Positions 8,071 to 58,898 are shown, numbered from the stretch's first letter. The stretch: DNA of 64,000 nucleotides from Alphaproteobacteria bacterium (GCA_965222315.1 OZ244951.1:962407-1026406), one strand, 5' to 3'. The notes: a model not told the origin generated them from the letters alone. A program made the numbers and translations.

Positions 8071-8084
8071 GGAAGGAGACTTTC

Positions 8085-36408: not shown

Positions 36409-36438
36409 CGCAGGCTTGCAGAAAGGAGCCCTTGCGCC

Positions 36439-36972: not shown

Positions 36973-37424
36973 GAGGTTGGATGCCCCTTCTATTCCGGAT
37001 CGGCTGTGTTGATTGATGGTCCAGCCGCGGCCTTTCAGGTCGTTTAGAAACCCGGTGATCGGGAAGGGCATTCCCATCCCATTTGCGCTTATCCGTCGGT
37101 AGCCGAACCCCGCCGCCGACTTTGACACTTTAACGCTTCCAGATAGAGCAAATCGCGTTTCCCTCGATCGCTAAGGCCATAACGGCGTCTTGCCAGCCGG
37201 CAAAGGCTGCAGCTCAGAAGGTCTTCATAGTTTGGCGTGAGATCAGATGGCGATGGACGTTGCACAGATTGTCGGGGTCTGTTGCATTGCCGCTTTTGGA
37301 CTGAAACGCCTTACCTTTCAGAAGGATCAGGCATTCGGGGCGAAAAGGTTTTCGATGAATGTAATCTTGCCACGGACTCCGGGCGTACGGTTGTAGGCGC
37401 TTCCCTTGACGATCATCCGGATCG

Positions 37425-37674
37425 TCTCGATGCCTACGACAATGCCATGTGCGAGAGCTTCTTCGCGACCTTGGAGTGCGAGTTGCTGGATCGCCGGCAG
37501 TTCCAGTCGCATGCAGAAGCCAGAATGGCGGTCTTCCACTTCATCGAAGGCTTCTACAATCCGACCCGCCGACACTCGGCGCTTGGATATCTATCGCCCA
37601 GCGAATACGAACGGAGGCAAGATGACCCGACACAAACTGAGTGACCCAAAAAAACTGTCCACGAAAGTGGGGCA
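37425..37674 (+). mobile_element. Truncated IS3-family element: the 3' end of orfB plus the right inverted repeat CCACGAAAGTGGGGCAACTCCA. It is ~95% identical to the complete copy at 57,541-58,868 but in opposite orientation.
   Basis: Its translation ..DAYDNAMCESFFATLECELLDRRQFQSHAEARMAVFHFIEGFYNPTRRHSALGYLSPSEYERRQDD is nearly identical to the C-terminus of the 57575-58465 product. The terminal 22 bp match the IS end. Confidence 0.75.
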
Positions 37675-37873
37675 ACTCCACCCTCCTCCTCCCGCAACGG
37701 GAAGCATAAGTGGAAAATTCCAGCTCAGAACGGTCCGATTTTTGGGAAGCAGGTCATAGGAAGTGAAGCACATCCTTCCGCCGATCAAGAAAGCCGCCTG
37801 ATTATGTCCGATCCAAGGGGCGTACTCTAGAGCTGAGTAAGTTTTGCATCGGCGCTAATAAGGTTACAGAATC

Positions 37874-38710
37874 CTATGACCTAAGGTGGGAGGACAAGGC
37901 CAATACCGCGATCTTGGTCCGGTTATCGACTTGCAACTTCCGCATTAAGTGGCGCACATGCAGCTTCACCGTCGATTCCGACAGGTTAAGCTCCCGCCCA
38001 ATGGCTTTGTTGGACAGGCCGCGTTCCAGTCCGTCCATCACATCAATCTGGCGCGGAGTCAGGTGGACCGTTTGCTTACCAACCTGCACCCCGATGCTCG
38101 GTTCGTCATCGCTCGCGGTCTCGTTAGGGGACAGGCAGGTACAGGATTCCGGCACGTGTTGTTCGGTCGGGGAGGGGATATGCGAACAGGGAGTCCCGTT
38201 CGCCAAGGGCCGGCTGTCCGCACCATTCTGCGCTACCGCCGTTTGCGTTGCGTGCTCGATACCGTGCGGGATTGACTTCGAATTCGGGTAGTAGTGTCCG
38301 CCTGCCTGTATGAAGTGAATGGCGGCGACTGCGAACTCGGACGGCATCCAGGTCGGAATTACGCCACGCACCTCGTGGGCGATCGCTATCTCAATGCCCT
38401 CAGCATCAATCTCGTCGACCAGAACAACGAGAGGCCGCCCCGTGAGCGCCAGCAAGCAGCGTCTCAGGGTCAGTTCTACTTCGGGCTCAACGAGCGACCG
38501 GCCGCCGATCACATATACGCAAGCTGCCGTGCCCTCCGCAAAGACGGCCTTGCCGGTACTATCCTCAGGAACCTTATCGGTCCAGGTCACACTGAGGGCA
38601 AATTCCTTGGCATGCTCCGCCAAAAGCGCCGAGATTGCGGTGCCGCGCAGAACGTGTCCGTCAAGTACGATAATTTCTCTTGGTCCATCGAACACCGTAA
38701 CCTCCCCCAC
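37874..38710 (-). CDS. LuxR-family transcriptional regulator with an atypical receiver-like N-domain (278 aa).
   Basis: C-terminal HTH LTPRQIDVMDGLERGLSNKAIGRELNLSESTVKLHVRHLMRKLQVDNRTKIAVLA. No obvious phospho-acceptor Asp context at the N-terminus. Confidence 0.65.
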   Translation of the reverse strand: MGEVTVFDGPREIIVLDGHVLRGTAISALLAEHAKEFALSVTWTDKVPEDSTGKAVFAEGTAACVYVIGGRSLVEPEVELTLRRCLLALTGRPLVVLVDEIDAEGIEIAIAHEVRGVIPTWMPSEFAVAAIHFIQAGGHYYPNSKSIPHGIEHATQTAVAQNGADSRPLANGTPCSHIPSPTEQHVPESCTCLSPNETASDDEPSIGVQVGKQTVHLTPRQIDVMDGLERGLSNKAIGRELNLSESTVKLHVRHLMRKLQVDNRTKIAVLALSSHLRS

Positions 38711-39195
38711 TCTGGATAGACAAAACCGTAATATCGCCGGTTTACCTCTTTATAGCATAAGTTGTACGCCTTCAGTGTTAACCAAACCTTACGAGTATAT
38801 GAGTTCACTGGTCAATATAATAATATCGTATACTGTTATAACTTAGGGTTGTATTTAGCACTCCTTTCACGAAATGTTGCTATGGCACCGTAACGGAAGG
38901 AAATTTTTGTCCGCAGGCTCCCATTGCCCGCGAGTTCGGCGCAGCCTGTATACCGTTTGGTTGTGGGGGAGGGCGGTACTTTTTTACCTACGCATTAAGC
39001 AGGTGTGGCCAGTGCGGACGGTGCCGCTATTATTATCGGGCGCAGTTTGAACCTGGTGCCAGGGATCGCCAGCTTAACAATCGCAGCATCCAAAAAGACC
39101 GGAAGCTGTAGGGCCTAAGAATGCCAACCAAAAGATTGTGTCAGTCACTTCCTCAAGAAGCTCTCTGCCGCCTCGGATAGGCCCAGCGCGGTCGT

Positions 39196-40629
39196 TCATT
39201 TTTTGTAAAGAGCATCGTTTTCTCCAAGGAACGCTAGGTAGTCGAACTTCATAAGCGCTCGAAAAGCGACAAAGAACGCCACGACAGCCATGATGAGAGC
39301 GCTGGAGAAAAGCCCATAAGCTGACATGCCGATTTGAAGATAAAAGCCGAGACTCACCGCAAAGTTGAGGAGGAGAAAGAGGGCTTGCAGAATGAGGAAG
39401 AGACGCGCCCGGTTGCAAACAAGGATCACGGCGCAACAGAGGTAAAAGACGGCATGGAGGAATACCGCGATCAACCCAACCCTAAGCGTCAATAGCTGGC
39501 CAAAGCTAAAATCGAGTGATTTTGCCAGCGCGGGCGCCATCAGGACCATAGCGGTGGTCAAAGCCGCCTGCAGAAAGACGATAGAAAACAACCCCGACCA
39601 AACCGTCTGCCCAAGCGCCTCGACGGAGTTGCGGATATTTTCATAGGTGGACCTGTCGGTTAGGCTAACGCGGAAAGCTCCGACCCCACTCATAAGCTTC
39701 GAGTCATGGAACAGGAATACCGCCGCAAAGGTTGGGATTGTTGAGATGTGGGCTACGAACATGACGCTGTCGTAAGGACTGTAGTGTAGGAAACCCGCAG
39801 CTGAACGCATAGCTTCTGGCGATAACCAATATACCCACTTGTCCGCCCACACCCCCATTACGGCAAGCAAAATACCGAGCCCGAGGACCCACAACCGGCG
39901 CACCGCATGCAGCATATCACGGACCGCCTGCATTAGGTCCGCATCGGATCCTGAAGCTGTCCGGCGCACTCGGATCACCGTCAGGGACACGCAGATAGCA
40001 ATGCCGACCGTAAACGACCAGATCAAGAGTTCGGTGTCGGTCTCCCCGCGCGTTCCCAGCATGATGCAGGCGACGGCAACGGTCATTCCGCCGGAGAAGG
40101 ACCAGATCAAATGGCGATAGGCCTTTAGTGCTGTCAGTGCCGCGAAGCTAGTCCACAATAGCGCCGCAGCGCCTGTCAGAAAGACGAACGCGGCTGCTAA
40201 CTCAAAAGGCGCTATACCAAGAAGTGGTACTAGGCCGAGCGCAAACCCTTCGGCCAATAGCGCGGAGCCGATGGCGGCAACCAGGAACAGCGCCGGCGCT
40301 TGGCGTACCTCGCCGCTATCCACCTCGGCCGCAATCAACCTTGCTGCGATGGCGCCTGATGGCCCTGCAACCAAGGGAGCAAGGCAGAACGCATAGACGA
40401 CGGTCAAGCGCAGATCCTCGACTGCCTCGAAGCCCAGCACCGGCGTCATTGTCACCGATACGATTGCCAGCGCGAAGATTGAGACCAGCCAAGGACCGGC
40501 CACGATGACAACTGCTCCCAGGAAAGTGATCACCGGACGCAGCAGACTGCCACCAAGTAACCATGTCAGCGCAGCGCCAGGCCCGCGGGCCGTCTCCGCT
40601 CCGTTGGCGCGATCCGTGTGAACGCTCAT
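39196..40629 (-). CDS. pelG: PelG-like 12-TM polysaccharide transporter (477 aa).
   Basis: Polytopic membrane protein of PelG size, encoded immediately downstream of, and overlapping, a PelF-like GT4. N-terminal GPWLVSIFALAIV resembles the PelG start. Confidence 0.5.
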   Translation of the reverse strand: MSVHTDRANGAETARGPGAALTWLLGGSLLRPVITFLGAVVIVAGPWLVSIFALAIVSVTMTPVLGFEAVEDLRLTVVYAFCLAPLVAGPSGAIAARLIAAEVDSGEVRQAPALFLVAAIGSALLAEGFALGLVPLLGIAPFELAAAFVFLTGAAALLWTSFAALTALKAYRHLIWSFSGGMTVAVACIMLGTRGETDTELLIWSFTVGIAICVSLTVIRVRRTASGSDADLMQAVRDMLHAVRRLWVLGLGILLAVMGVWADKWVYWLSPEAMRSAAGFLHYSPYDSVMFVAHISTIPTFAAVFLFHDSKLMSGVGAFRVSLTDRSTYENIRNSVEALGQTVWSGLFSIVFLQAALTTAMVLMAPALAKSLDFSFGQLLTLRVGLIAVFLHAVFYLCCAVILVCNRARLFLILQALFLLLNFAVSLGFYLQIGMSAYGLFSSALIMAVVAFFVAFRALMKFDYLAFLGENDALYKK

Positions 40630-42131
40630 GCCAACATTAGTTCCTCATAGAGAGCAGCATAGCGCTGCGCCGAGAGCTCTGAGGTGAAGTACGTTTCAAC
40701 TCGCTTGCGCAGTGTTTCGCCGCACCGCCGGCGCAGGTCGGCGTCACCCAGCAACTCTGCAATGGCCTCCCCGATTGCCTTGGCGTCCATTACCGGTGCG
40801 ACGCGGCCGGCAATACCAAGGTTTGGCACCTCGTCTGGCGCTCCTTCGATGATCTCCCGGCAGGACCCGACGTCGGTGGTAACGCAGGGCACCCGCGCCG
40901 CGCCAGCCTCAAGCAGTACCAGTGGTTGCGCCTCGCTGATTGAAGTAAGCACCAGGACGTCGATGCGGCCTAGATAGTCAACGATGTTGACTTTGCCCGT
41001 GAAAACAATGGTCTCCCCGAGGTCGAGTTCGTCAATCCGCCGCTTACAAAGTGCGAAATAGTCCTCGTCTTCATCGGTTGGCCCAATCAATAAAAACTCT
41101 ACGTCGGGGATCACGTTTCGCACAACTGCGGCGGCAGCGATGAAGGCCTCGATGTCCTTGATTGGCACTACGCGGCCGATCAGTGCCGCTGTTGGCCGCT
41201 TTGCCTGGCCAGACTCGATACTGTCGAAACGCTCGAGCTCAATGCCATTAGGGATAACCTGTAGCGATTTCTCACGCGCGCCGAGGGTTCGCTGGAACGA
41301 CTGGTTGGCGCCGTAGAGGGTGGTCACCTTGTCGGCGCCGGAATAGACAGCGCGAGCATAAGACTCAAAGGTCTCGATCCAGAAGGCCCTAACGTCAGTT
41401 CGTCCCTCGCTGCCAAGGCCTGTTCTGACGGTGTCGGCAATCCAGTCTGCCATCACCAGATCAATGCGGCGCTCGTTTGTGTAGATACCGTGCTCAGTGA
41501 TAGCTGACCGGGCTCCGTTCCGACCCGCAGCGCGGACCGCGAAAACCCCGGCATAGCCGGTCGAGATCGCATGATATACCCGCGCCGGTGGCGTTGGTGC
41601 CATGACTACGGAAAGCATGCCTCCAACGAGGTTCTGCCAAGCCCAAAAGAAGTCCGAAAAGGATGCATGCGGGGCGATCCGTTGGTAGCAGGTCACCATA
41701 GCAGCCCAGGCGGGCTCCGAGCACAATAGGTCCGAGTAACTGGGGGGCGTTCGCCGCAATAGCCGGCCGAGACCGGAGCGCCGCACAGGCTTTACCGCCA
41801 TCTCGGCCAATGCGTGAACCGCCTCAACGTCCCCCTCGCGGACAACCCGATAGAGCAGGTCGGCGAACGCCTCCACATCAATCAGCGGCCGCGACAGACC
41901 AGGTCGCTCAAGTTGGTGGGCGAGTGGCACCGTTTGGAAGTACGCCACATTATCCGGCAACTGGTACTTTAATTCGCGCGGCCGGTCGTCGGCGACCAGC
42001 GCGACGACTCCAAAGGCGGTGTTGGGTTGGTTTCGTATCAGCCAGTCCAACCACGACGACACGCCGCCCGCAATATACGGATAGCAGCCTTCGACAACGA
42101 TGCAGACATCCAATGTATTTGATGCACTCAC
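40626..42131 (-). CDS. pelF: PelF-like GT4 glycosyltransferase (501 aa).
   Basis: N-terminus LDVCIVVEGCYPYIAGGVSSWLDWLI matches the remembered PelF start (DVCLLLEGTYPYV.GGVSSWV). GT4 C-terminal E-x7-E region. 4-nt overlap with the pelG-like gene. Confidence 0.6.
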   Translation of the reverse strand: MSASNTLDVCIVVEGCYPYIAGGVSSWLDWLIRNQPNTAFGVVALVADDRPRELKYQLPDNVAYFQTVPLAHQLERPGLSRPLIDVEAFADLLYRVVREGDVEAVHALAEMAVKPVRRSGLGRLLRRTPPSYSDLLCSEPAWAAMVTCYQRIAPHASFSDFFWAWQNLVGGMLSVVMAPTPPARVYHAISTGYAGVFAVRAAGRNGARSAITEHGIYTNERRIDLVMADWIADTVRTGLGSEGRTDVRAFWIETFESYARAVYSGADKVTTLYGANQSFQRTLGAREKSLQVIPNGIELERFDSIESGQAKRPTAALIGRVVPIKDIEAFIAAAAVVRNVIPDVEFLLIGPTDEDEDYFALCKRRIDELDLGETIVFTGKVNIVDYLGRIDVLVLTSISEAQPLVLLEAGAARVPCVTTDVGSCREIIEGAPDEVPNLGIAGRVAPVMDAKAIGEAIAELLGDADLRRRCGETLRKRVETYFTSELSAQRYAALYEELMLA

Positions 42132-42931
42132 GCGATGCCTCCGCAGGCGTAGCGTTTCAGCGGAGGCGGCCGCACCAGCGCGCCTTTTCTCGGTAGGGGT
42201 GGTGCAGAACGCGTTGTCAGAGTGACGCGCCTTGCCAACGCCCTGAGTTCATTCGCAGAGTCCTTGTCGATAAAGCCCGACGCGGCAACCGCCTCGGCCT
42301 CCTCGGCGACGCTTCGGGTGAGTGGGCCCTGGACAGCGGCTGCGCGCACTGCCTTTGCACGATCATCAAAACTCCCTCGCAGCTTGGCATAGACCGCCGC
42401 GGCTTGCACCCGGATGGCCGGCACATCAGAAGCAAGGGCCAGTCTAAGCGCCGGCAGCATCTCCGGGCGGTAGCTCAGTGAGATCGCGGCAATTGCCTTT
42501 TGTTGCCGTTGCAGCGTGCCTGAAGCAAAAACCTCAGCAAAGGGAATCAGCGCCTCCCTACCCGCACGGTGACGGCGACCCTGCAGGATCTCCGCGTGCA
42601 AAAGCTCTGCTGTGCTGGACGGCGCTGTTGCCCTTTTTGCAGGGTTGATTTTTGATGCTAGCGCATCGCCATGGTCGAGGTCCAAGATTAGGAGAAAAAG
42701 TCCGCCGACTGGACCAAGTACAAAACCAAGCAGCAGCGAATTCGCTGTCTGCATCCGTTGGTGCGGCCAGAACACCAGCGCGACGCTGCCGATAATACCG
42801 AGAATGACGAAGTGATATCCCAATGTCAGCAACGTGGAATGGTCACCCGCAATCCAGAGCCACGTCAGCACGAGGTCAGCCGTAGCTAGGGTGGCAGACA
42901 CGGTCTGCACGTAGAGAATTGATCCAATCAT
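42128..42931 (-). CDS. PelE-like inner-membrane protein (N-terminal TM helices plus C-terminal helical/TPR-like domain, 267 aa).
   Basis: Topology and position in a coupled pelDEFG-like array. The assignment is context-based. Confidence 0.4.
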   Translation of the reverse strand: MIGSILYVQTVSATLATADLVLTWLWIAGDHSTLLTLGYHFVILGIIGSVALVFWPHQRMQTANSLLLGFVLGPVGGLFLLILDLDHGDALASKINPAKRATAPSSTAELLHAEILQGRRHRAGREALIPFAEVFASGTLQRQQKAIAAISLSYRPEMLPALRLALASDVPAIRVQAAAVYAKLRGSFDDRAKAVRAAAVQGPLTRSVAEEAEAVAASGFIDKDSANELRALARRVTLTTRSAPPLPRKGALVRPPPLKRYACGGIA

Positions 42932-43902
42932 TGCGATATCTGCTGATGATCTGAACAGGAGACCGGTCTGAGATGGATTGCCGGCCGGGAGTTATAGAAT
43001 GCCAATGCAGCTGCCAGTGCGACGGTGCACGTGACTGGCTCAGGCGACAGGATGGTTGAAGCGCTTTGATCCTCGACAATCGCGGCGCCGCCGCTATCTG
43101 TTATGGAGGCCGGGCGCCCGCGTGGCATTATCGTTACTAGGAAACCGCTGTTTCCTACGCCGACGGCAACCTCAGTGCCATCGGCAACGGCCCTCTCATT
43201 GGTTCGTCCGGCTGATGTCAGCCGACGTAGTTCCTCTGCTTCACATGCTGTCAATTTGAGCCGTACACCAACACCCAATGGCTCGTCGTCCCCGGCGTAG
43301 AATACTGCCCCCGCGAAACCAAGCGCCTCTGTAGCCTCCGTAAACTTGGCCTCGAACGACTCAGTGTCGGCCATTGCCAGCACCGACAGCGCTGGCAAGC
43401 TTCGCTCTACGCCGCCCGCGTGCGTAGTAGTAGCGATCTGCAACTCAAGCGCCGCGACGTCGCTATCCATACGATTTACTTCGGTGGCCAGATCCTCACT
43501 CATTCGCCTAAGCCGCGCGTTCTCGGTCCTAAGCTCCGCCTCCAGCCGGATCTGTGCTTGGCGGATTGAGCCAACAATGATCGCCATGAGAAGCCATTGC
43601 ACCGGAAGGATGGCGAGTTCAACGTAGTGGGCAGTGATGTCGATGCCAGCAGGCCGTGGCGGCCAATCCATGAGCAGTGCTGCCATTGCCGCAGTCGACA
43701 CGCCCACATAGAGGCCGCCCTGCACGGCGGCGAGGATCACGAAGAGCCAGTATGGATGAATTGTTAGGGCTGCGTAGAACCCTTCCCCGAAAAACAGCGG
43801 CTCAGCCGCCCGAGCCACGAGCAGCAAGACCACAGCGCCGAGCAGGCTGCGAAGGAACGGTTCATGTTCATTCGGTAAGTAAGGCTCTGATCCGGCGGTC
43901 AT
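42928..43902 (-). CDS. PelD-like membrane protein (4 TM plus cytoplasmic domain, 324 aa). It is shorter than canonical PelD, so the degenerate GGDEF module is possibly absent.
   Basis: Four N-terminal hydrophobic helices followed by a soluble domain. Operon position upstream of the pelE-like gene. Confidence 0.35.
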   Translation of the reverse strand: MTAGSEPYLPNEHEPFLRSLLGAVVLLLVARAAEPLFFGEGFYAALTIHPYWLFVILAAVQGGLYVGVSTAAMAALLMDWPPRPAGIDITAHYVELAILPVQWLLMAIIVGSIRQAQIRLEAELRTENARLRRMSEDLATEVNRMDSDVAALELQIATTTHAGGVERSLPALSVLAMADTESFEAKFTEATEALGFAGAVFYAGDDEPLGVGVRLKLTACEAEELRRLTSAGRTNERAVADGTEVAVGVGNSGFLVTIMPRGRPASITDSGGAAIVEDQSASTILSPEPVTCTVALAAALAFYNSRPAIHLRPVSCSDHQQISQ

Positions 43903-45578: not shown

Positions 45579-45630
45579 CTTAGAAACACGCTATCAATTT
45601 TATCTTGGAAGTTTTTGGTTGAACACGAGC

Positions 45631-48030: not shown

Positions 48031-48037
48031 CACAACA

Positions 48038-50531: not shown

Positions 50532-50761
50532 CTTACTCTCCTTTAGAAGACCGCTGCTGGTCCCAATCTGCAATTCCCGGCGAAACGGCATCCAAGGCCG
50601 CCGCTGGATGATAGAGCGTGGTGGGCTCGGGCACCGCGGCACCTATGAGGGTACCGCAACGTCCAACTGCGTTGCGAGGTTCACGACGGCGGTGAAAAGA
50701 ATGCAGGCGCGTCCGCGTCTTGCATATTGGCCTCTGTTTGCGTGGTTCGGTTGCTCGGTGG

Positions 50762-52588: not shown

Positions 52589-52712
52589 GATCGCTGCTTC
52601 CCCTCCAGTATAGCTATCCCGGAAACCGCATCTGCGGGCTGCGGGCACCGAATATCTTGAAGGCCATTCCGGATTTCCCTTTCCTGCGACGCCTGATTAA
52701 ATCGGCAAGTGG

Positions 52713-55700
52713 CTAGGCAATCAGAAGCGGATCGACAACGAAGATGTAATTGACGTCAAGCTGAGCAGCGCTGATGCCGGAGAGCTGAACGCTTCCGCCC
52801 TGGTAGGTCAGAGTGGCTCCACCGGAACTGTCGAAAAAACCGTCCAAAACATCGGCGGCTAGGGCATAGCCTACGTCCTCGAACTCCAGGATGTCGGCGC
52901 CGACGACGAAATCGTCGATCGTATCGTCACCGTCGCCGCCTCGGAAGACAAAGGTATTCTGTCCGCCTTGACCGCTAAGAATGTCATTACCGCTGCCGCC
53001 CTCCAGCCGGTCATCTCCGAGACCGCCTTCCAGGGTGTCGTCGCCCAGCCCGCCAAGCAGCAGGTCGTTGCCCTCCTGGCCGCGAACCGTGTCGGCGTTG
53101 CTGCCGCCGATCAAGATGTCGTCCGTAGCGCCACCGTTCAGGGCGGTGGTAGCCGCCTCCATGTCGAGCGCAACGCTGTGTTGCCCGCCAGCGTTAAAGC
53201 TGAGCACCAGATCGCCATCGACCGCAAAGCGGGCGAAGTCAGCGCCGGTGACAGCGACCGTCTGGCTGCCTTGGGTTTGAAGTCCGATGTGTACGTCGCT
53301 CTGGCCGTCGAAGTCGAAATTCAGATCGGTGCCGTCGCCCGACAGCAAGATCAAATCGTTGCGCTGCCCCAGATCGTTAACATGAGTGACGTCGGCAGGC
53401 GTCGTGCCGAGCACGATCTCAAAGGTTCCGCCGGTCTGCGGCAGGAAAACGCTGGTATCATCGTAAGCGTACCATCCCGTGACGCTGTCGATTGTGCCCT
53501 CGCTGCTAACGTCCAGCGCAAAGCGCCCGGCGTCGGAAGACGTGACAGAGGCGGTGAGAATGTTCCCCGACCGCGACGTGGTAAGGCTCGATGTCCCAAA
53601 GCTCGCGATACGATCCGCCAGATCGGCTCCGGTGACAAATTCTGCGCCGTCTGTCGCGGCCTGCCCAATCAGTGCCTCGAACATCTGAAGCGTGTAGTTG
53701 GTGGGGTCGCCGATATCCCAATTCGTCGGGCCGTAATCGTGCCAGGGAAACGCAATGATCGGCGCGGTCGCATTGCTGGTGATCTCAGCGTACTCGTCCA
53801 GCCAAACCGCGGCCGCCTCCGCCGGTGTCAATCCCTGGAACCCGATCAGCGAAAAGTCGAAGCTCATGTTGGGGGCTAGGTATACCGCCCCTGTCTCACT
53901 CGGCGTCACAAAGCCGAAGGCGCCTGGATAGCCCGCGCCGGTGCCGGAGAAACCTCCCGAGAGATAGTCGTAAAAGCGGATTATCTCGCGTGTCGTGTCG
54001 ATATTCTCTGGCGCGCCAGGCACTGCTGCGCCTGCCACATTGATGCCGAGTTCATGCTCGATTATCAGTTTGGAGGTCTCGAACTGAAAGCGGTACGAGG
54101 AGAAGAGAAGATCCTGCTCCGCCTGTGTCAGCGTGGAGGGATCGACCGCGTTCGGATTGCGCGGGTCCACCAGGGCGACCAGCGCTAGAATTTCCGGCGT
54201 GTCGGGCAGGAGCTCGTTGGTATCATGTGGATGAGTGTAGGAGTGCGAGCCGATCTCGCTCTCCAATGCGAGGATCGCGTCGTAGTATGGCTTCGAGACA
54301 GTCCAGTCAGTGTACTGATCGGGCGGGTTCGCGCCGATGTCGATGTAGTATGAGCCGACAAAGCCCCAGGTGTCGTACCAGTTCTGGATGATTGGCAGCA
54401 TCGCGTCGTAAATGCTTGGGTCCTGCTCAATGACGTCCCACGACTCCTGCGCCTGATCCATATCGTTGCGCGAGTAGAACAGCGACGAACCGCGGGTTAT
54501 CAGCAGCGACACGTCCGGCGCGTTGTCTGTCGATACCCAGTCAATTGCCTCGCCAAGGATGTTGTTGTTGCCGATGATCGCGTCCGTGGCGAAGTGGACG
54601 TTGCGCGCCACGTTCTGGGTCGCAATCACCGCGTCAAGGGTCGCTGTCCCGCCGGTAGGGGTGGTTACAACTTGGTCGAACAGTACCTGACCAGCCCCGG
54701 TCGTGTCAGTGAAGTTTAAGTAGGAGAGGTTGTCGTAGGCGCCCACAAGCTGGCCGTTGGTATAGCCGTTGAGGATAGGGTGCCCCGCCCCCGTGGCGAC
54801 CAAGTCTACCCCATCGGTCTGCCCGAAACCCTCTAGCGTGACACCGAGAAGCGACGACATCCGCGCATACGAGTTTCCAGGAAGCGCCGCGCCGGTCTCG
54901 TCATTGGTCAGGAAATTGCCCGCAGCGATCAGGCCGACCCCGTAATTGCTCTGAGCGTCGGCAAGACTGGTTGCGATGGCGTCGACTTCAGCACTCTTGA
55001 CATGGCTGAACCCGGGAAAGACCAAAGCATCGTACTGGGCCAGGTTCGCCGGGTCGATGAGGTCTCCCTCGGTCAGCAGATCGAACGGGATGCCGGCCTG
55101 CATCGCCTGGTTCTGCATCGACATGAACAACTGGCCGTAGTTCGTTATGTTGTAATAGTTTGCCGCGGTGGTGTCGGAATAAACAATGCCGATCCTGAGT
55201 TGCGGGTCGTCGACCGGTCCGCCGGTCGGTGCCGGGTGGATCACCAGGTTTGCCCCGGCATACGAGTCGGGCATGAAGATGTGCTCGTTAACATCGGCCA
55301 GAACTCGAACTGAGGTGGGGGTGCCGGCCATCAGCCCTTGCGGCAGCGCCACCTCCAAGCCTGACCCATCCGCTGCGAGGCTGAAGTCGAGATCGGCGAC
55401 AAAGGTCGCACCGGCGCCGCCGGAATAAAGCTTGGCGACACCGTCCACACCGATGTTGATGTTGTACTCTGCGCCGCCGGCCCAGCCCCAGATCTGGTGG
55501 CCGGTAGCAGTGTCGCGGTCGGTGTCGATCCAAATCGTGGTGTTGGCGCCGATCGCCGCAAGCTCGCTCTCGATCGCCAAAACGAACACGTCGCCCAGTG
55601 TGGCGTCCTGCTCGATCGCGCCGTAGAGCCGATAACCCCCAGGTTGCTGCCCGGCGCCGGTCTCGAACAGAAGCTCTGAGCCGAGCCACTCTCCGGGATC

Positions 55701-56744
55701 AATCACCCCGTCGAGCGTCTTTCCGCCGGCTACGACTATTGGCACGGACCCTATGATAAAGTTGGCAAGCGCGTAATCGTTCGGCAGGTACACACTGTCG
55801 TTGACGTCGCTATAGATGCGAACCGCATTGGGCGATCCCATCAGCGAGCCGTCGATGGCGAGCTCGAGCGTGGCGCCGTCTGTGGACAGGGCGTAGTCGA
55901 TGTCGCCAATCAGCGTCTGGCCCGCCGCCCCGGAATAGAGCCGCGCTACGCCATCAGCCCCGAAGTTGACGTTGTACTCCGCGCCGCCGGACCATCCCCA
56001 AATCAGATGACCGCTCGCCCGGTCGAGATCGGAGTCGATCCAGATTGTGGTATTCGCGCCAATGGACAGGCCGTCGGTGGTGATCGCGACCGTGTAGACG
56101 CCGCCTTGCAGATCGCCGTAGATGGCATAGCCCGGCATGCCGGTTCCAGGCCCGTCGAGCCGCGCCGACGCTGCCCATTCGCCAATATCGCCGTCGAGCG
56201 TCTTCCCGCCGGCGACCACCGGCGGCACGTCGTCTATGATAAAGTTGGCAAGCGCGTAGTCATTCGGCAGGTAGACACTATCGTTGACATCGCTATAGAC
56301 GCGGATCGCGTTGGGCGATCCCATGAGCGAGGCGTCGATGGCTAGTTCGAGCGTGGCGCCGTCTGCGGAGAGCGCATAGTCGATATCTCCGACCAGAGTC
56401 TGGCCTGCCGCGCCGGAATAGAGCCGGGCCACGCCATCAGCTCCGAAATTGACGTTGTACTCCGCGCCGTTGGACAGGCCCCAGATCTGATAGCCGGTCG
56501 TTCGGTCTAAATCGGCATCGACCCAGATCGTGGTATTCGGGCCAATGGACAGGCCGTCGGTGGTGATCGCGACCGTGTAGACGCCGCCTTGCAGATCGCC
56601 GTAGATGGCATAGCCCGGCATGCCGGTTCCAGGCCCGTCGAGCCGCGTTGAGGCTGCCCATTCGCCAATATCGCCGTCGAGCGTCTTTCCACCGATGATG
56701 ATACTCATCTGACCGAACCTGTTCGGCATGAAGTGATCAGGCAA
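52713..56744 (-). CDS. Giant secreted multi-domain protein (1343 aa). It has three N-terminal ~161-aa tandem repeats, a central carbohydrate-active-like domain (HS-x-x-HP motif) and C-terminal RTX GGxGxD calcium-binding repeats; a probable T1SS substrate.
   Basis: Repeats GGKTLDGDIGEWAAS(T/A)RLDGPGTGMPGYAIYGDLQGGVYTVAITTDGLSIG.NTTIW.D.DLDR..G..IWG.S.GAEYNVNFGADGVARLYSGAAGQTL.GDIDYAL.(A/T)DGATLELAID.SLMGSPNA.R.YSDVNDSVYLPNDYALANFII occur three times. C-terminal LLGGLGDDTLEGGLGDDRLEGGSGNDILSGQGG. Confidence 0.65.
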   Translation of the reverse strand: MPDHFMPNRFGQMSIIIGGKTLDGDIGEWAASTRLDGPGTGMPGYAIYGDLQGGVYTVAITTDGLSIGPNTTIWVDADLDRTTGYQIWGLSNGAEYNVNFGADGVARLYSGAAGQTLVGDIDYALSADGATLELAIDASLMGSPNAIRVYSDVNDSVYLPNDYALANFIIDDVPPVVAGGKTLDGDIGEWAASARLDGPGTGMPGYAIYGDLQGGVYTVAITTDGLSIGANTTIWIDSDLDRASGHLIWGWSGGAEYNVNFGADGVARLYSGAAGQTLIGDIDYALSTDGATLELAIDGSLMGSPNAVRIYSDVNDSVYLPNDYALANFIIGSVPIVVAGGKTLDGVIDPGEWLGSELLFETGAGQQPGGYRLYGAIEQDATLGDVFVLAIESELAAIGANTTIWIDTDRDTATGHQIWGWAGGAEYNINIGVDGVAKLYSGGAGATFVADLDFSLAADGSGLEVALPQGLMAGTPTSVRVLADVNEHIFMPDSYAGANLVIHPAPTGGPVDDPQLRIGIVYSDTTAANYYNITNYGQLFMSMQNQAMQAGIPFDLLTEGDLIDPANLAQYDALVFPGFSHVKSAEVDAIATSLADAQSNYGVGLIAAGNFLTNDETGAALPGNSYARMSSLLGVTLEGFGQTDGVDLVATGAGHPILNGYTNGQLVGAYDNLSYLNFTDTTGAGQVLFDQVVTTPTGGTATLDAVIATQNVARNVHFATDAIIGNNNILGEAIDWVSTDNAPDVSLLITRGSSLFYSRNDMDQAQESWDVIEQDPSIYDAMLPIIQNWYDTWGFVGSYYIDIGANPPDQYTDWTVSKPYYDAILALESEIGSHSYTHPHDTNELLPDTPEILALVALVDPRNPNAVDPSTLTQAEQDLLFSSYRFQFETSKLIIEHELGINVAGAAVPGAPENIDTTREIIRFYDYLSGGFSGTGAGYPGAFGFVTPSETGAVYLAPNMSFDFSLIGFQGLTPAEAAAVWLDEYAEITSNATAPIIAFPWHDYGPTNWDIGDPTNYTLQMFEALIGQAATDGAEFVTGADLADRIASFGTSSLTTSRSGNILTASVTSSDAGRFALDVSSEGTIDSVTGWYAYDDTSVFLPQTGGTFEIVLGTTPADVTHVNDLGQRNDLILLSGDGTDLNFDFDGQSDVHIGLQTQGSQTVAVTGADFARFAVDGDLVLSFNAGGQHSVALDMEAATTALNGGATDDILIGGSNADTVRGQEGNDLLLGGLGDDTLEGGLGDDRLEGGSGNDILSGQGGQNTFVFRGGDGDDTIDDFVVGADILEFEDVGYALAADVLDGFFDSSGGATLTYQGGSVQLSGISAAQLDVNYIFVVDPLLIA
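55130..56680 (-). repeat. Three tandem ~483-nt coding repeats; the first two are nearly identical at the DNA level.
   Basis: The off-frame ORFs 55954-56178 and 56437-56661 encode near-identical peptides 483 nt apart. This matches the in-frame protein repeats. Confidence 0.75.
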
Positions 56745-57574
56745 CCCACTGATCTGTCGTTAAGCCGTCCGGCAGATATGCGCATGTTGGTTGACTTTCG
56801 CTTAAGCAGTGAGCGTCGCAGAGAGTCCCACTTATGCAGACAATTTCTCCCACCTCAGCTTGCCGCGCCAACTAACCTTGCGGCCAGCTAGCCCAAATAG
56901 CTGCCTGGCAATGCTAGCCGGCCTCTTCCTGGCACGCCGGAGTGAGCGAGGTTGATGTCATTGCAACGAAATGATCGGGCGGATGCCCCTTCACGTTGGC
57001 CATCTCGCGGCGCTGCGGTGGCGTTATTAACGGAGGAACCCACGTCAGACGTTCATGTCTCGAAGATTCATTTCCCCAGACGAAACTTCCCGGCTTGCGG
57101 AGAGGTTGCCCTGGTCGTTTGGACAAGTGGTCAACTTTAGCATGGGGGTTCAGGGTCGCATAAAACTTGTCCTCTGCATAATCCGGCGTGCGAACCGCAC
57201 CGGGTTTACCGGAGGCTGATTGACGTTAGTTGCGCGGCCATGGCTTCAGTTTCCAGAGTTGCGTAGTAGTTGGCTTCGGCTTCCGCGGGCGGGATGTTCC
57301 CGATGGGTTCAAGCAGACGACGGTTGTTGAACCAGTCGACCCATTCCAATGTGGCGTATTCGACGGCCTTAAAGCTGCCGCCAGATCTTCCGGACGCCGT
57401 AGATTGGCCCTTTATCTTCGAACACGCGACGGATCTCGGGGCGCAAAGCCTCATCCCGGCGGGCATGATCTGACAGCCGGCCCGGATCGGCCCGCTTGGC
57501 CAGATGATCAAAATAGGTAGACGGGTAGGAGTGTCATAGCTGGAATTGCCCCACTTTCGTGGACAGTTTTTGGG

Positions 57575-58465
57575 TCACTCAGTTTGTGTCAGGTCATCTT
57601 GCCTTCGTTCGTATTCGCTGGGCGATAGGTATCCAAGCGCCGAGTGGCGGCGGGTCGGATTGTAGAAGCCCTCGATGAAGTGGAAGACCGCCATCCTGGC
57701 TTCTGCATGCGACCGGAACCGCCGGCTATCCAGCAACTCGCACTCCAAGGTCGCGAAGAAGCTCTCGCACATGGCATTGTCATAGGCATCGCCGACCGAT
57801 CCGGTTGAAGGACGAACCCCAGCCTCCTTGCAACGGTTGCCAAAAGCCAACGACGTATATTGCGAGCCATTATCGGAGTGATGGATGACATCGCCGGGCT
57901 TGCGTACCGCGACCGCCATATCAAGGGCAGCCAGCACCAGCCGTGTCTTCAGGTTTGTTGAAAAGGCCCAGCCGACGATCCGGGGGACCAAGCATCTAAC
58001 ACGACAGCCAGATAGATGAAGCCCACCACGGTTGGGACGTAGGTGGTGTCGGCTACCTGTTAGCCGGTAGGCGATGCTAGCATCGCCGTAAGGCCGGAGT
58101 GCATTGGCACTTTTGGCAGCAAAGTTCCGGCGCACCAGGTCGTTTGCAGACTGGTGATCCGGATGCGGCCACGTCGTTGCCGGCGCATTCCGGCGGCGGC
58201 TGACGCCTGTCAGAGAGGCCTTCCGCATCAACCGGGCCACGCGCTTCTGGCCAACGGCCACACCTTCGGCATGCAGTTCTGCGCGGATGCGGGGCGCGCC
58301 ATAGGTGCCATGGGATCGCGCATGGATCGTGCGGATCTGCCGGGTCAGATTGGCATCCGCCGCAGCCCGAGCCGATGCTAGCCGTTTGCGCCACGCATAA
58401 TAGCCGGATCCAGAGACCTTCAGGACGCGTGCCATCGTGCGGATGGGATAAATGGCCTGGTGCAC
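57575..58465 (-). CDS. IS3-family transposase OrfB (integrase-core DDE). It is possibly inactivated; see the frame anomaly under findings.
   Basis: ..YPIRTMARVLKVSGSGYYAWRKR.. and DDE core motifs. Confidence 0.75.
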   Translation of the reverse strand: MHQAIYPIRTMARVLKVSGSGYYAWRKRLASARAAADANLTRQIRTIHARSHGTYGAPRIRAELHAEGVAVGQKRVARLMRKASLTGVSRRRNAPATTWPHPDHQSANDLVRRNFAAKSANALRPYGDASIAYRLTGSRHHLRPNRGGLHLSGCRVRCLVPRIVGWAFSTNLKTRLVLAALDMAVAVRKPGDVIHHSDNGSQYTSLAFGNRCKEAGVRPSTGSVGDAYDNAMCESFFATLECELLDSRRFRSHAEARMAVFHFIEGFYNPTRRHSALGYLSPSEYERRQDDLTQTE

Positions 58466-58466
58466 G

Positions 58467-58841
58467 CTAATGAACTGCCAGACCCGTTCGGGTTGGCCTT
58501 GCTCTCCCGCGCGAACCAGGCTGCCGCCCCCGGATCAGGTCCGGGACATGCTTTGCCAAGATATCGCGCTCCTGCCACAGGCGGCGGTTTTCACTACGTA
58601 GTTTGGATAATTCCTCGCGCTCGGCACTGGTCGTGCCATCCACACGCTTGCCGGCGTCGCGGTCCGCTTGCCGAACCCACTTCGCGATTGACTGTGCGGT
58701 TGGCTCGAATTCTTCGGAGAGCTCTTCCGGCGTTCGGCCCGAGTGGACCAAATCCACCATTTGACGGCGAAATTCCGGCGGATAAGCCGGTCGGTACCTT
58801 TGCATAGCGTACACCTCCGCTGATAGCTTCAAGGTGTCCAC
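58467..58841 (-). CDS. IS3-family transposase OrfA (HTH/leucine-zipper).
   Basis: See the mobile_element call above. RBS GGAGGTGT. Confidence 0.8.
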   Translation of the reverse strand: MDTLKLSAEVYAMQRYRPAYPPEFRRQMVDLVHSGRTPEELSEEFEPTAQSIAKWVRQADRDAGKRVDGTTSAEREELSKLRSENRRLWQERDILAKHVPDLIRGRQPGSRGRARPTRTGLAVH

Positions 58842-58898
58842 TGAAACGGGTCAACTCCAGGCGTCACCATCTCCCTGGCTATCACCACATTCGTAAAC

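What the first reader, a model, noticed from the sequence alone, without database searches (positions are those of the whole stretch)
37425..58868. Pel-like polysaccharide locus bracketed by inverted IS3 copies (one truncated)
A 250-bp 3' fragment of an IS3 element (37425-37674, + orientation) and a full copy (57541-58868, - orientation) share ~95% identity, including the terminal repeat. They flank ~20 kb that encodes a LuxR regulator, pelG/pelF/pelE/pelD-like genes, a Wza-like exporter, a TPR protein, a GH114-like hydrolase, glmS and a giant RTX protein. This is a composite-transposon-like or recombination-scarred arrangement. Homologous recombination between the copies could invert the locus.
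Basis: seen in the sequence. Interest (0 to 1): 0.55.

Follow-up and report, generated by a model that had tools for sequence, protein, structure and literature searches.

The report
Pel biofilm gene module between dead IS relics
A horizontally acquired, unusual version of the Pel biofilm-polysaccharide gene cluster lies inside a larger island next to a tRNA gene; the two related IS3 copies at its borders are old, dead relics, not a working transposon or inversion switch.

Summary
The repeat is real. A 268-bp 3' end of an IS3-family element (37413-37680, +) matches the end of a 1319-bp copy (57541-58859, -) at 93.7% identity.

It is not a functional composite transposon.
- The left copy has only its right-hand inverted repeat.
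- Both surviving right-hand repeats point into the block.
- The "full" copy carries a 23-nt insertion, a 37-nt insertion and a 1-nt deletion that break the frameshift logic and the DDE domain.
- There is no target-site duplication.

A 97-98% identical metagenome scaffold has the same junction in the same orientation, with the fragment eroded by a further 218 bp. Both borders also hold debris of other IS elements (IS6-family on the left, a second rve-type transposase on the right). A tRNA-Ser lies 0.7 kb beyond the right copy.

The cargo is one conserved 11-gene module, LuxR to the giant RTX protein. It is syntenic with an alphaproteobacterial MAG (77-85% nt) and with Cereibacter plasmids (31-66% aa).

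It is a derived Pel variant.
It lacks the hydrolase domain and the deacetylase catalytic motifs.
- The "Wza-like" protein is a Poly_export/HlyD-hairpin hybrid.
- No PelD, PelE or PelB similarity is detectable.
- The giant RTX protein carries an intact CE4 deacetylase-like core.

The parts
37121..37287 (-). 3' remnant of an IS6-family element, the partner of 10162-10551 (+)
   Evidence: 152-nt inverted repeat at 82% identity. The partner copy encodes a DDE_Tnp_IS240 C-terminus. The remnant is present in L009.
37413..37680 (+). Truncated IS3-family copy: the last ~75 codons of orfB plus the right terminal inverted repeat. The repeat faces the Pel module.
   Evidence: 93.7% identical to 57541-57808. 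rve_3/rve_2 hits. In L009 only 37506-37680 survives.
37874..38695 (-). LuxR/GerE-type transcription regulator, the first gene of the conserved module
   Evidence: GerE E 8e-19. 70% aa identity to L001 and 31% to the Cereibacter response regulator. Gene call taken from L009.
39196..40629 (-). pelG
   Evidence: PF16933 PelG, 192 bits against a cutoff of 29.
40626..42131 (-). pelF (GT4 glycosyltransferase)
   Evidence: NF038011 PelF, 398 bits against a cutoff of 100. DUF3492 plus Glycos_transf_1.
42128..42931 (-). 267-aa protein with 2 TM helices in the PelE position; family unknown
   Evidence: No Pfam, NCBIfam or PDB hit. No similarity to Caballeronia PelE. Conserved in L001 and L008. TM scan.
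42928..43902 (-). 324-aa protein with 4 TM helices, a coiled coil and a small alpha/beta domain, in the PelD position; no GGDEF domain
   Evidence: Weak DUF4118 hit. hhalign against canonical PelD gives probability 0.7%. Model pLDDT 64, with only weak GAF/roadblock-like Foldseek hits. One distant homolog has GAF_3.
43899..45560 (-). 553-aa hybrid protein: N-terminal TM helix, Wza-type Poly_export domain, HlyD/LipC-like alpha-helical hairpin, small C-terminal beta domain
   Evidence: Poly_export 22.5 bits. 21 of 26 homologs carry PF02563. AlphaFold model. Foldseek hits: Wza 2w8i E 2.4e-4; LipC 5nen TM-score (target) 0.78; HlyD 5c22 TM-score (target) 0.64.
45631..48030 (+). PelA homolog without the N-terminal hydrolase domain and with degenerate deacetylase motifs. 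The start may instead be 45691.
   Evidence: PDB PelA 9cgy E 2e-29. 28% identity to Caballeronia PelA residues 285-884. Motif loss HIDGDG->TLTPEG and SHTYTHP->TMGLTMI.
48038..49390 (+). 450-aa signal-anchored TPR-like protein in the PelB position, with no porin domain
   Evidence: TPR_16 E 2.8e-4. Matches designed TPR proteins in PDB. No similarity to canonical PelB. 38% identity to the Cereibacter ortholog.
49347..50531 (-). Secreted GH114/TM1410-type glycoside hydrolase (stand-alone PelA-hydrolase analogue)
   Evidence: TIGR01370 E 2e-21. PDB TM1410 E 2e-11 and GH114 9ep5 E 1e-7. The Cereibacter ortholog (44% identity) is annotated endo alpha-1,4 polygalactosaminidase.
50762..52588 (-). glmS paralog belonging to the module
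   Evidence: GATase plus SIS domains. N-terminus is MCGI. 66% identity to the glmS in the Cereibacter module. Deleted in L001 apart from a 98-bp remnant.
52713..56744 (-). 1343-aa secreted protein: three ~161-aa N-terminal repeats, a conserved core with a CE4 deacetylase-like signature (residues ~750-1010), and C-terminal RTX repeats
   Evidence: RTX repeats. Tandem repeats. Core family linked to pelF/pelG-like genes. Polysacc_deac_1 in 7 of 9 members, best E 9e-8. Invariant RNDMDQ, HSYTH and PWHDYG motifs. 317 representative clusters at E <= 1e-30.
57206..57390 (-). C-terminal fragment of a second, unrelated rve-type (IS3-like) transposase
   Evidence: 91% aa identity to sequences in Paracoccus and Haematobacter plasmids, annotated 'integrase catalytic subunit' where annotated. 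ORF listed.
57541..58859 (-). Full-length but inactivated IS3-family copy. The right inverted repeat at 57541 faces the Pel module.
   Evidence: HTH_Tnp_1 and HTH_21/rve hits. Alignment to the Bosea IS3. Inverted repeats 24/40 identical, TG...CA ends. Flanks are GCC and GCT, so no target-site duplication.
58529..58551 (-). 23-nt hairpin-forming insertion directly after the A-AAG slip site. It puts orfB at +1 instead of -1 relative to orfA.
   Evidence: Unique in the window.
58061..58097 (-). 37-nt insertion containing the 18-bp palindrome GGCGATGCTAGCATCGCC. With a 1-nt deletion near 57990 it scrambles ~36 codons, including the first catalytic Asp.
   Evidence: Unique in the window and in the fetched loci.
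59583..59673 (-). tRNA-Ser(GGA). Its 3' end faces the IS3 copy and the island. It is the likely island anchor.
   Evidence: Rfam and ARAGORN. GC rises from ~0.60 to 0.64 to its right.

Best explanation
The ~19-kb interval is a single, evolutionarily conserved cargo module: a derived alphaproteobacterial version of the Pel exopolysaccharide system with its own regulator, precursor enzyme (GlmS) and a secreted giant protein. It sits as one block in a larger mosaic island of at least 59 kb that ends at tRNA-Ser(GGA), on a 5.16-Mb contig. The blocks of this island (accessory genes, an eCIS locus, the Pel module) are joined at junctions littered with IS debris.

The two IS3 copies are such debris. 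One is a 268-bp stump. The other is a full-length pseudogene. Both predate the split from a 97-98% identical strain and are decaying by small deletions and insertions. They mark old insertion, deletion or recombination junctions. In their present state they can neither transpose the block nor act as an efficient inversion switch.

Shown: the repeat, the lesions, the end orientation, the synteny and the shared junction. Inferred: acquisition of the module by horizontal transfer, and the island's tRNA anchoring.

Inferred function of the module. PelF and PelG polymerise and export a GalNAc/GlcNAc-type polymer from precursors boosted by GlmS. A stand-alone GH114-type hydrolase and a catalytically degenerate PelA scaffold handle the polymer in the periplasm. 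A Poly_export/HlyD-hairpin hybrid replaces PelC and the PelB porin. The RTX protein's CE4-like core supplies deacetylation outside the cell.
For: Repeat and ends.

Inactivation of the full copy: alignment to the Bosea IS3 shows +23 nt, +37 nt and -1 nt. Removing these restores orfA, a -1-frame orfB and the DDE residues.

No target-site duplication: flanks are GCC and GCT.

Other IS debris: IS6 remnant at 37121-37287; second transposase fragment at 57206-57390.

Shared ancestry of the junction: L009 is 96.8-98.5% identical and collinear. It lacks 37288-37505 through a deletion at a GCAT microhomology.

Module conservation without this IS3: L001 is 77-85% nt identical from 37873 to 56901 and has a different transposase remnant next to LuxR. 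Cereibacter azotoformans plasmid p1 has all 11 genes in the same order and strands at 31-66% aa identity.

Composition: block GC is 0.58-0.61 and GC3 0.61-0.69 (RTX gene 0.76), against 0.64-0.68 and 0.75-0.83 in the eCIS locus and the right flank.

tRNA-Ser. Chromosome-sized contig.

Pel components.
Against: - Two related IS3 copies sitting exactly at the two borders of the conserved module is what a decayed compound transposon would look like. Chance placement in two junction hot spots is an assumption.
- No integrase and no att direct repeat of the tRNA 3' end were found in the window, so the tRNA-island reading is circumstantial.
- Only one window was available. Other intact copies of this IS3 elsewhere in the genome could supply transposase in trans.
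- The right border could not be seen in L001 or L009.
- The functional statements on the Pel variant rest on motifs, weak profile hits and medium-confidence models (pLDDT 64-68). They are not based on experiment.
Confidence: 0.7

Rival explanations
1. Decayed compound transposon. An IS3-Pel module-IS3 unit once transposed as a whole into this site. Afterwards the left copy lost its 5' 1050 bp to a deletion or to IS6-mediated rearrangement, and the right copy accumulated indels.
For: The two copies are the same element (93.7%). They are inverted and lie within 200-640 bp of the limits of the block that is syntenic with L001 (37873-56901). The block has lower GC than both flanks.
Against: No outer-end target duplication can be shown. 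The left outer end is gone. The same module in L001 and Cereibacter is associated with other IS types, not this one. The 6.3% divergence between copies shows no recent common origin. A further transposase fragment (57206-57390) lies between the module and the right copy, so that copy is not directly adjacent to the cargo.
Confidence: 0.17
2. Active invertible segment. RecA-dependent recombination between the two inverted IS3 stretches flips the 20-kb Pel block, giving two isomers in the population.
For: Inverted homology of 268 bp with a 54-bp perfect run exceeds the minimal length usually needed for homologous recombination (established knowledge, not tested here).
Against: The near-identical metagenome scaffold L009 has the same orientation. 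Homology is short and mismatched every ~20 bp. An inversion would not change the promoter context of any module gene in an obvious way, because each unit carries its own upstream region. No sign of gene conversion between the copies was seen.
Confidence: 0.04
3. Assembly artefact. The stump and the indels in the full copy are errors of a long-read or metagenome assembly at a repeat.
For: L001, from a nanopore-type MAG, shows frameshifted genes. Repeats often break assemblies, and the L009 contig ends about where the right-border IS debris begins.
Against: An independent assembly from another sample (L009) reproduces the left junction and the IS3 stump base for base apart from a clean 218-bp deletion. 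The insertions are 23 and 37 nt with internal palindromes, unlike homopolymer errors. All module genes in the window are intact.
Confidence: 0.04

Closest known systems
Canonical pelABCDEFG system (Pseudomonas aeruginosa; here compared with the annotated locus on Caballeronia grimmiae plasmid p1, L011)
   Same: PelF and PelG are clear orthologs. A PelA homolog is present. A TPR protein follows pelA. Two small membrane proteins precede pelF. A GH114-type hydrolase activity is encoded.
   Different: - pelA and the TPR gene are divergent from the rest.
- PelA lacks the hydrolase domain and the Asp/His-His deacetylase motifs.
- The TPR protein is 450 aa without a porin.
- There is no PelC.
- No similarity to PelD or PelE is detectable, and there is no GGDEF/I-site receptor.
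- Extra genes: a Poly_export/HlyD-hairpin hybrid, glmS, a LuxR regulator and a giant RTX protein with a CE4-like core.
Unstudied pel-type cluster on Cereibacter azotoformans / C. sphaeroides plasmids (NZ_CP090023, CP031752) and relatives in Paracoccus and Rubellimicrobium
   Same: Same 11 genes in the same order and orientation, including glmS and the giant protein. Same loss of the PelA deacetylase motifs.
   Different: 31-66% aa identity. The Cereibacter cluster is plasmid-borne, has galE, a shorter PelD-position protein (189 aa), an IS481 between the regulator and pelG, and a VWA protein beyond the giant gene. It has no IS3 at the borders.
IS3-family insertion sequences (closest sequenced: an element on the Bosea vestrisii A18/4-2 plasmid, NZ_CP126308)
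   Same: orfA (HTH_Tnp_1) and orfB (HTH_21 plus rve), an A-AAG slip motif, TG...CA terminal repeats, ~1.3 kb length. OrfB is 68% aa identical and the shared stretch is 77% nt identical.
   Different: The window copy has two insertions and one deletion that inactivate it. No flanking duplication is present. The second copy is a 268-bp stump.
Compound transposons (Tn5, Tn10, Tn9 type)
   Same: Cargo between two inverted copies of one IS.
   Different: One copy lacks its outer end, no transposase is active, there is no target duplication, and the cargo occurs elsewhere without these IS copies.
AlgE-type secreted RTX mannuronan C-5 epimerases of Azotobacter (polymer-modifying enzymes exported by type I secretion)
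   Same: An enzyme-like domain acting on an exopolysaccharide is fused to C-terminal RTX repeats and encoded with the polysaccharide genes. The RTX block hits AlgE R-modules at E 7e-6.
   Different: The putative activity here is CE4 deacetylase, not epimerase. It is inferred from motifs only.
Class-3 OPX proteins (Poly_export-SLBB without Wza_C; Saidi et al. 2022, PMC9603273)
   Same: A Poly_export-type domain without an outer-membrane helix. Weak Foldseek match to class-3 WzaB 9n9a, E 7.6e-3.
   Different: The protein has an N-terminal TM anchor instead of a lipoprotein signal. It has an inserted ~200-residue HlyD-like hairpin. It is part of a synthase-dependent Pel locus, a pathway for which that paper states no crossover with OPX/PCP proteins had been identified.

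Membership tests
IS3 family insertion sequence (copy at 57541-58859) | Two consecutive ORFs: orfA with an HTH and orfB with an rve/DDE domain | tested here: met
   HTH_Tnp_1 E 2e-6; HTH_21 E 9e-20; rve, rve_3 and rve_2 hits.
IS3 family insertion sequence (copy at 57541-58859) | orfB in the -1 frame relative to orfA, with a slippery motif in the overlap | tested here: not met
   The A-AAG motif is present, but a 23-nt insertion right after it puts orfB at +1. Removing the insertion restores -1.
IS3 family insertion sequence (copy at 57541-58859) | Terminal inverted repeats ending TG...CA | tested here: met
   TGGAGTTGACCC... and ...GGGGCAATTCCA. 24 of 40 positions identical. Ends coincide with those of the Bosea element.
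IS3 family insertion sequence (copy at 57541-58859) | Short (3-bp) target-site duplication | tested here: not met
   Flanks are GCC and GCT, and neither a 3-bp nor a 4-bp duplication matches. The exact ends are inferred by alignment only.
IS3 family insertion sequence (copy at 57541-58859) | Intact DDE catalytic domain | tested here: not met
   A 37-nt insertion plus a 1-nt deletion put ~36 codons, including the first Asp, out of frame.
Compound (composite) transposon | Two IS copies, each able to supply a functional outer end | tested here: not met
   The left copy retains only 268 bp with its right inverted repeat, which faces inward. Its left inverted repeat is absent.
Compound (composite) transposon | Active transposase from at least one copy | tested here: not met
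   The only full-length copy is a pseudogene. Other copies elsewhere in the genome could not be examined.
Compound (composite) transposon | Target-site duplication flanking the whole unit, or the same IS-cargo-IS unit at other sites | tested here: not met
   No duplication is present. L001 and the Cereibacter loci carry the cargo with other IS types. L009 shares the junction by descent.
Pel exopolysaccharide system | PelF GT4 glycosyltransferase | tested here: met
   NF038011, 398 bits against a cutoff of 100.
Pel exopolysaccharide system | PelG multi-pass membrane protein | tested here: met
   PF16933, 192 bits against a cutoff of 29. About 12 hydrophobic segments.
Pel exopolysaccharide system | Bifunctional PelA (hydrolase plus CE4 deacetylase) | tested here: not met
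   Homologous to PelA (9cgy E 2e-29). It aligns only to residues 285-884 of canonical PelA, so there is no hydrolase domain. The Asp and His-His motifs are replaced.
Pel exopolysaccharide system | PelD c-di-GMP receptor (GAF plus degenerate GGDEF) | tested here: not met
   No PelD_GGDEF or GGDEF hit. hhalign probability against canonical PelD is 0.7%. The fold search gave only weak GAF/roadblock-like matches.
Pel exopolysaccharide system | PelE | tested here: inconclusive
   The 267-aa protein has 2 TM helices and lies at the PelE position, but BLASTP against canonical PelE is not significant. No PelE profile was available.
Pel exopolysaccharide system | PelB (TPR plus outer-membrane beta-barrel) and PelC lipoprotein | tested here: not met
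   Only a 450-aa TPR-like protein with no similarity to PelB. No PelC/LpoB-like gene is present. A Poly_export hybrid occupies that position.
OPX (Wza-like) outer-membrane polysaccharide export proteins | Poly_export (PF02563) domain | tested here: inconclusive
   The window protein scores 22.5 bits, below the cutoff of 28. 21 of 26 homologs carry PF02563. Foldseek hit to Wza 2w8i at E 2.4e-4.
OPX (Wza-like) outer-membrane polysaccharide export proteins | Lipoprotein or secretory signal and a C-terminal Wza_C outer-membrane helix (class 1) | tested here: not met
   The N-terminus is a TM helix without a lipobox Cys. No Wza_C hit was found and the C-terminus is modelled at low confidence. A HlyD/LipC-like hairpin is inserted.
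CE4 polysaccharide deacetylase (core of the giant RTX protein) | Asp plus His-His metal triad and catalytic motifs; match to Polysacc_deac_1 | tested here: inconclusive
   Invariant RNDMDQ, HSYTH and PWHDYG motifs in 9 of 9 members. PF01522 hits 7 of 9 members, best E 9e-8, but not the window protein itself. PDB CE4 hits only at E 0.02-0.06.
tRNA-linked genomic island | tRNA gene at the border and deviant composition | tested here: met
   tRNA-Ser(GGA) at 59583-59673. GC shift at ~60 kb.
tRNA-linked genomic island | Adjacent integrase and a direct repeat of the tRNA 3' end at the far border | tested here: not met
   No integrase domain was found in the ORF next to the tRNA. No repeat of 12 nt or more occurs in the window. 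The far border may lie outside the window.

The most novel reading that the evidence does not exclude
In this alphaproteobacterial Pel lineage (this genome, the related MAG, and Cereibacter, Paracoccus and Rubellimicrobium plasmids or chromids) the periplasmic tailoring and export half of the Pel machine has been rebuilt.
- PelA survives only as a catalytically dead scaffold.
- Its hydrolase is a separate GH114-type protein.
- Deacetylation is outsourced to a giant, type-I-secreted RTX protein with a CE4 core that acts on the polymer outside the cell, as AlgE epimerases do for alginate.
- PelC and the PelB porin are replaced by an inner-membrane-anchored Poly_export/HlyD-hairpin hybrid, which may dock to a TolC-like channel. 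That would be a crossover between synthase-dependent and OPX/type-I-like export.
- c-di-GMP control by PelD is replaced by a LuxR-type regulator.
Probability: 0.3. Interest if true: 0.65.

Novelty: new variant of a known kind. Interest (0 to 1): 0.4.

Why it matters
As flagged, the finding is ordinary. IS stumps at the seams of a mosaic genomic island are common, and this pair is dead.

The value lies in the cargo. It defines a conserved, mobile 11-gene Pel variant shared by plasmids and chromosomes of several alphaproteobacterial orders, and its annotation in public records is mostly 'hypothetical protein'. If the motif-based inferences hold, Pel modification and export can be solved in a different way:
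- an extracellular RTX-linked deacetylase;
- a pseudo-enzyme PelA;
- an OPX/HlyD-like adaptor instead of PelBC;
- no c-di-GMP receptor.

That bears on how synthase-dependent polysaccharide systems evolve and exchange parts with other export pathways.

Tried and rejected
- **Exact-sequence look-ups.** Look-ups of window proteins (PelF, GlmS, the 324-aa and 553-aa proteins) in the contig index found nothing. The organism is therefore known only as an unnamed alphaproteobacterium on a 5.16-Mb contig.
- **Plasmid DNA searches.** Searches with the IS, the right flank and the module found only distant relatives. The LuxR-pelG spacer has no match.
- **Single-sequence PDB searches.** The 267-, 324- and 553-aa proteins gave nothing useful. 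Profiles of the 324- and 553-aa families hit only coiled coils.
- **Fold search of the 324-aa model.** Inconclusive, with no hit at E <= 0.001.
- **Comparison with canonical Pel proteins.** hhalign and BLASTP against canonical PelD, PelE and PelB found no similarity, so the 'pelD/pelE-like' labels were dropped.
- **Recombinase idea.** From memory I suspected the ORF next to the tRNA (58845-59312) to be a serine-recombinase C-terminus. Pfam, NCBIfam and plasmid searches did not support this, so the claim was dropped.
- **Island att repeat.** A search for a repeat of the tRNA 3' end was negative.
- **Small IS insertions.** Searches for further copies in the window and in the fetched loci were negative. 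The RNA fold around the slip site is no better than shuffles (z = 0.05).
- **Rfam.** Only the tRNA was found. There is no riboswitch upstream of the pel units.
- **Target-site duplication.** None was found for the IS3 copy.

Full report
**1. The observation**

The two segments are homologous beyond doubt.
- blastn aligns window 37413-37680 (+) to 57808-57541 (-) at 93.7% over 270 columns, E 5e-112.
- The repeat finder reports an ungapped 225-nt core at 96%.
- A global alignment has 13 mismatches and 4 gap columns, and the longest perfect run is 54 bp.
- Left of 37413 the similarity is at background, so the left copy is a 268-bp 3' stump.

The long copy runs from 57541 to 58859 (1319 bp). I fixed its ends by aligning it to the closest sequenced relative, an IS3-family element on a Bosea vestrisii plasmid (77% nt over the shared stretch, 68% aa in OrfB). 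I also compared its terminal inverted repeats, TGGAGTTGACCC... and ...GGGGCAATTCCA, which are 24/40 identical. OrfA carries HTH_Tnp_1 and OrfB carries HTH_21 plus rve domains.

**2. State of the IS copies**

The "full" copy is a pseudogene. Against the Bosea element it has three lesions.
- A 23-nt hairpin-forming insertion (58529-58551) lies immediately after the A-AAG slip motif.
- A 37-nt insertion (58061-58097) contains the perfect 18-bp palindrome GGCGATGCTAGCATCGCC.
- A 1-nt deletion lies in the W-S-R-R-I-V-G-W coding stretch near 57990.

The first insertion moves orfB to +1 instead of -1 relative to orfA. The second insertion and the deletion together keep a 296-codon ORF open but read about 36 codons out of frame, including the first catalytic Asp. 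Deleting the two insertions and restoring one base in silico gives a normal OrfA, a -1-frame OrfB and the DDE residues, so these are the only lesions.

The flanks are GCC and GCT, so there is no target-site duplication.

The right-hand inverted repeat of each copy points into the block. The stump has no left-hand repeat. The outer end a compound transposon would need on the left therefore does not exist. The only pair of ends that could be used together would mobilise everything except the block.

**3. Both borders are IS graveyards**

Left border. The stump is preceded by 125 bp of unassigned sequence and then by a 152-167-bp 3' remnant of an IS6-family element (37121-37287, -). Its 82%-identical partner at 10162-10551 (+) still encodes a DDE_Tnp_IS240 C-terminus. 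This pair brackets a complete extracellular contractile injection system locus at 10.9-36.4 kb: sheath, gp19 tube, Pvc16_N, AAA ATPase, eCIS_core, Phage_base_V, gp25, baseplate J and DUF6519.

Right border. Between the RTX gene and the IS3 copy lies the C-terminus of a different rve-type transposase (57206-57390, -; 91% aa identity to sequences on Paracoccus and Haematobacter plasmids). Beyond the IS3 copy, 0.7 kb away, is tRNA-Ser(GGA) (59583-59673, -) with its 3' end facing the island. To its right, GC rises to 0.64 and GC3 to 0.80-0.83, and the genes there (enoyl-CoA hydratase, a GT4 and a metallophosphatase (LpxH-like)) look like core genes.

I found no integrase and no att repeat in the window, so the tRNA anchoring is an inference. 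The window comes from a 5.16-Mb contig, so it is chromosomal.

**4. Comparative evidence on the borders**

L009, a metagenome scaffold. It is 96.8-98.5% identical to window 33670-55560 and fully collinear: eCIS DUF6519 gene, 177-aa gene, IS6 remnant, IS3 stump, LuxR and so on to the RTX gene. Its only structural difference is the absence of window 37288-37505. This is a 218-bp deletion between two GCAT microhomologies, and it leaves just 175 bp of the stump. Three conclusions follow.
- The stump already existed in the common ancestor of the two strains and is being eroded.
- The block has the same orientation in both, so no inversion isomer is seen.
- The two IS3 copies (6.3% apart) are older than the strain split (1.5-3%).

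L001, an alphaproteobacterial MAG. It is syntenic with window 37873-56901 at 77-85% nt, and the homology starts exactly at the LuxR stop. Its left neighbour is an unrelated enoyl-CoA hydratase plus a remnant of a different transposase. It has lost glmS apart from a 98-bp remnant.

Cereibacter azotoformans plasmid p1, with relatives in C. sphaeroides and Paracoccus. It carries all eleven genes in the same order and on the same strands at 31-66% aa identity. An IS481 lies between the regulator and pelG, and there is an extra galE.

The cargo is thus an old, conserved, horizontally mobile module that turns up in different replicons next to different IS types. The IS3 pair is specific to this lineage. 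Block GC is 0.58-0.61 and GC3 0.61-0.69, against 0.64-0.68 and 0.75-0.83 in both neighbours, which fits foreign origin.

**5. What the cargo is**

There are three transcription units.

*Unit 1 (minus strand, 45560 to 39196, with 4-nt start/stop overlaps).*
- A 553-aa protein.
- A 324-aa protein.
- A 267-aa protein.
- pelF (NF038011, 398 bits).
- pelG (PF16933, 192 bits).

*Unit 2 (plus strand).*
It hits the PelA structure 9cgy at E 2e-29 and canonical PelA residues 285-884 at 28% identity.
- A 450-aa signal-anchored TPR-like protein.

*Unit 3 (minus strand).*
- The 1343-aa RTX protein.
- glmS.
- A secreted GH114/TM1410-type hydrolase.

The LuxR/GerE regulator lies at the end of the module.

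Differences from canonical Pel (Caballeronia pelABCDEFG).
- The PelA homolog has no hydrolase domain. Its CE4 motifs are replaced: HIDGDG becomes TLTPEG and SHTYTHP becomes TMGLTMI. The Cereibacter ortholog shows the same loss. More distant relatives (L002-L006) and canonical PelA keep both motifs.
- The 324-aa, 267-aa and TPR proteins show no detectable similarity to PelD, PelE or PelB. The 324-aa protein has 4 TM helices, a long helix and a small alpha/beta domain with only weak GAF/roadblock-like fold matches, and no GGDEF domain.
- No PelC is present. The 553-aa protein has an N-terminal TM helix and a Poly_export-type domain. The window sequence scores below the Pfam cutoff, but PF02563 is recorded in 21 of 26 homologs. 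It also has a ~200-residue helical hairpin and a small C-terminal beta domain. Foldseek matches Wza (2w8i, E 2.4e-4) for the first part and the type-I-secretion adaptors LipC and HlyD (TM-score to target 0.64-0.78) for the hairpin. "Wza-like" is therefore only half the description.

An Azospirillum locus shows an intermediate state: separate GH114, a PelA without hydrolase, a split PelB, a PelC-like protein and a GAF-type PelD.

**6. The giant RTX protein**

It has three ~161-aa N-terminal repeats, a ~700-aa conserved core and C-terminal RTX repeats.

Relatives of the core are common in metagenomes: 317 representative clusters at E <= 1e-30. In many loci they sit next to pelF- or pelG-like genes. 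Three of those loci have a pelF, pelG, 553-aa-like, giant-gene order.

The core holds three motifs that are invariant in nine diverse members: RNDMDQ (760-765), HSYTH (834-838) and PWHDYG (1000-1005). Pfam Polysacc_deac_1 is detected in 7 of the 9 members, best E 9e-8, though not in the window protein itself. The family profile hits only CE4 enzymes in PDB, weakly (E 0.02-0.06), aligned on the His-His motif.

I infer a CE4-type deacetylase exported by type I secretion. It could replace the dead deacetylase of the PelA homolog. This is the most novel reading and it is untested. No type I secretion genes are in the window.

**7. Mechanism and verdict**

Best-supported account, with confidence about 0.7. 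A conserved Pel-variant module was acquired as a block into a tRNA-Ser-linked mosaic island. The seams of that island collected IS insertions that later suffered deletions. The two IS3 copies are relics of that history and are inert today.

A decayed compound transposon cannot be excluded as the original vehicle (about 0.17), but nothing positive supports it. An active inversion switch (about 0.04) and an assembly artefact (about 0.04) are unlikely.

As flagged, the finding is ordinary. The cargo is a new variant of a known kind and is moderately interesting to people working on exopolysaccharide systems. Known surveys of pel operon diversity report rearrangements of pelA and pelB and divergence of PelB, PelC and PelE, but do not describe this architecture. 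A recent OPX survey states that no crossover between OPX/PCP proteins and synthase-dependent pathways had been identified.

Noticed in passing
window 10906-36408 (+), bracketed by 10162-10551 (+) and 37121-37287 (-): A complete extracellular contractile injection system (eCIS/PVC-like) locus: sheath, gp19 tube, Pvc16_N, AAA ATPase, eCIS_core, Phage_base_V, gp25, baseplate J and a DUF6519/beta-helix protein. It is itself bracketed by inverted 3' remnants of an IS6-family element (82% identity), the same geometry as the IS3 pair around the Pel module.
   Followed up: partly
window 59583-59673 (-): tRNA-Ser(GGA) lies 0.7 kb from the IS3 copy with its 3' end facing the island, and GC and GC3 rise to its right. 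It is the likely anchor of a multi-module genomic island of at least 59 kb. No integrase or att repeat was found in the window.
   Followed up: partly
window 58529-58551 and 58061-58097 (inside the IS3 copy): Two short insertions with internal palindromes (23 nt with a 6-bp stem; 37 nt with a perfect 18-bp palindrome) are, together with a 1-nt deletion, the only lesions in the transposase genes. They occur nowhere else in the window or in the 50 loci held at the time of the search. Their origin (templated repair, a very small mobile palindrome, or something else) is unexplained.
   Followed up: partly
window 45631-48030 (+); L008:12034-14193: The PelA homologs of this genome and of Cereibacter have lost the CE4 Asp and His-His motifs that more distant relatives keep. 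They look like pseudo-enzymes retained as scaffolds.
   Followed up: yes
window 52713-56744 (-); loci L012-L050: The core of the giant RTX protein defines a sizeable uncharacterised family (317 clusters at E <= 1e-30). It has invariant CE4-like motifs and recurrent linkage to pelF/pelG-like genes in metagenomes. The copy number of the ~161-aa N-terminal repeat varies between relatives (one to several).
   Followed up: partly
L001:15240-16243 compared with window 50545-52713: The related MAG lacks the module's glmS and keeps only a 98-bp remnant of its 5' end. Several of its module genes appear frameshifted, which may be assembly error or decay.
   Followed up: no
L008:4882-5841 (Cereibacter azotoformans plasmid p1) and L001:1708-1947: In other hosts the same module is also touched by IS elements of other families: an IS481 between the regulator and pelG, and a transposase stump next to LuxR. 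The LuxR end of the module seems to be a recurrent IS landing or junction site.
   Followed up: partly
window 36394-37128 (-) and 36439-36972 (+): Two overlapping ORFs lie on opposite strands after the eCIS locus. The gene call in the near-identical scaffold and the GC3 value favour the 177-aa plus-strand ORF. It has no family hit.
   Followed up: no
window 1-9100: An accessory region of lower GC (0.55-0.62) holds an LssY_C protein, three DUF1214/DUF1254 proteins, a MetA-pathway outer-membrane channel and an alkyl sulfatase. Its relation to the island was not examined.
   Followed up: no
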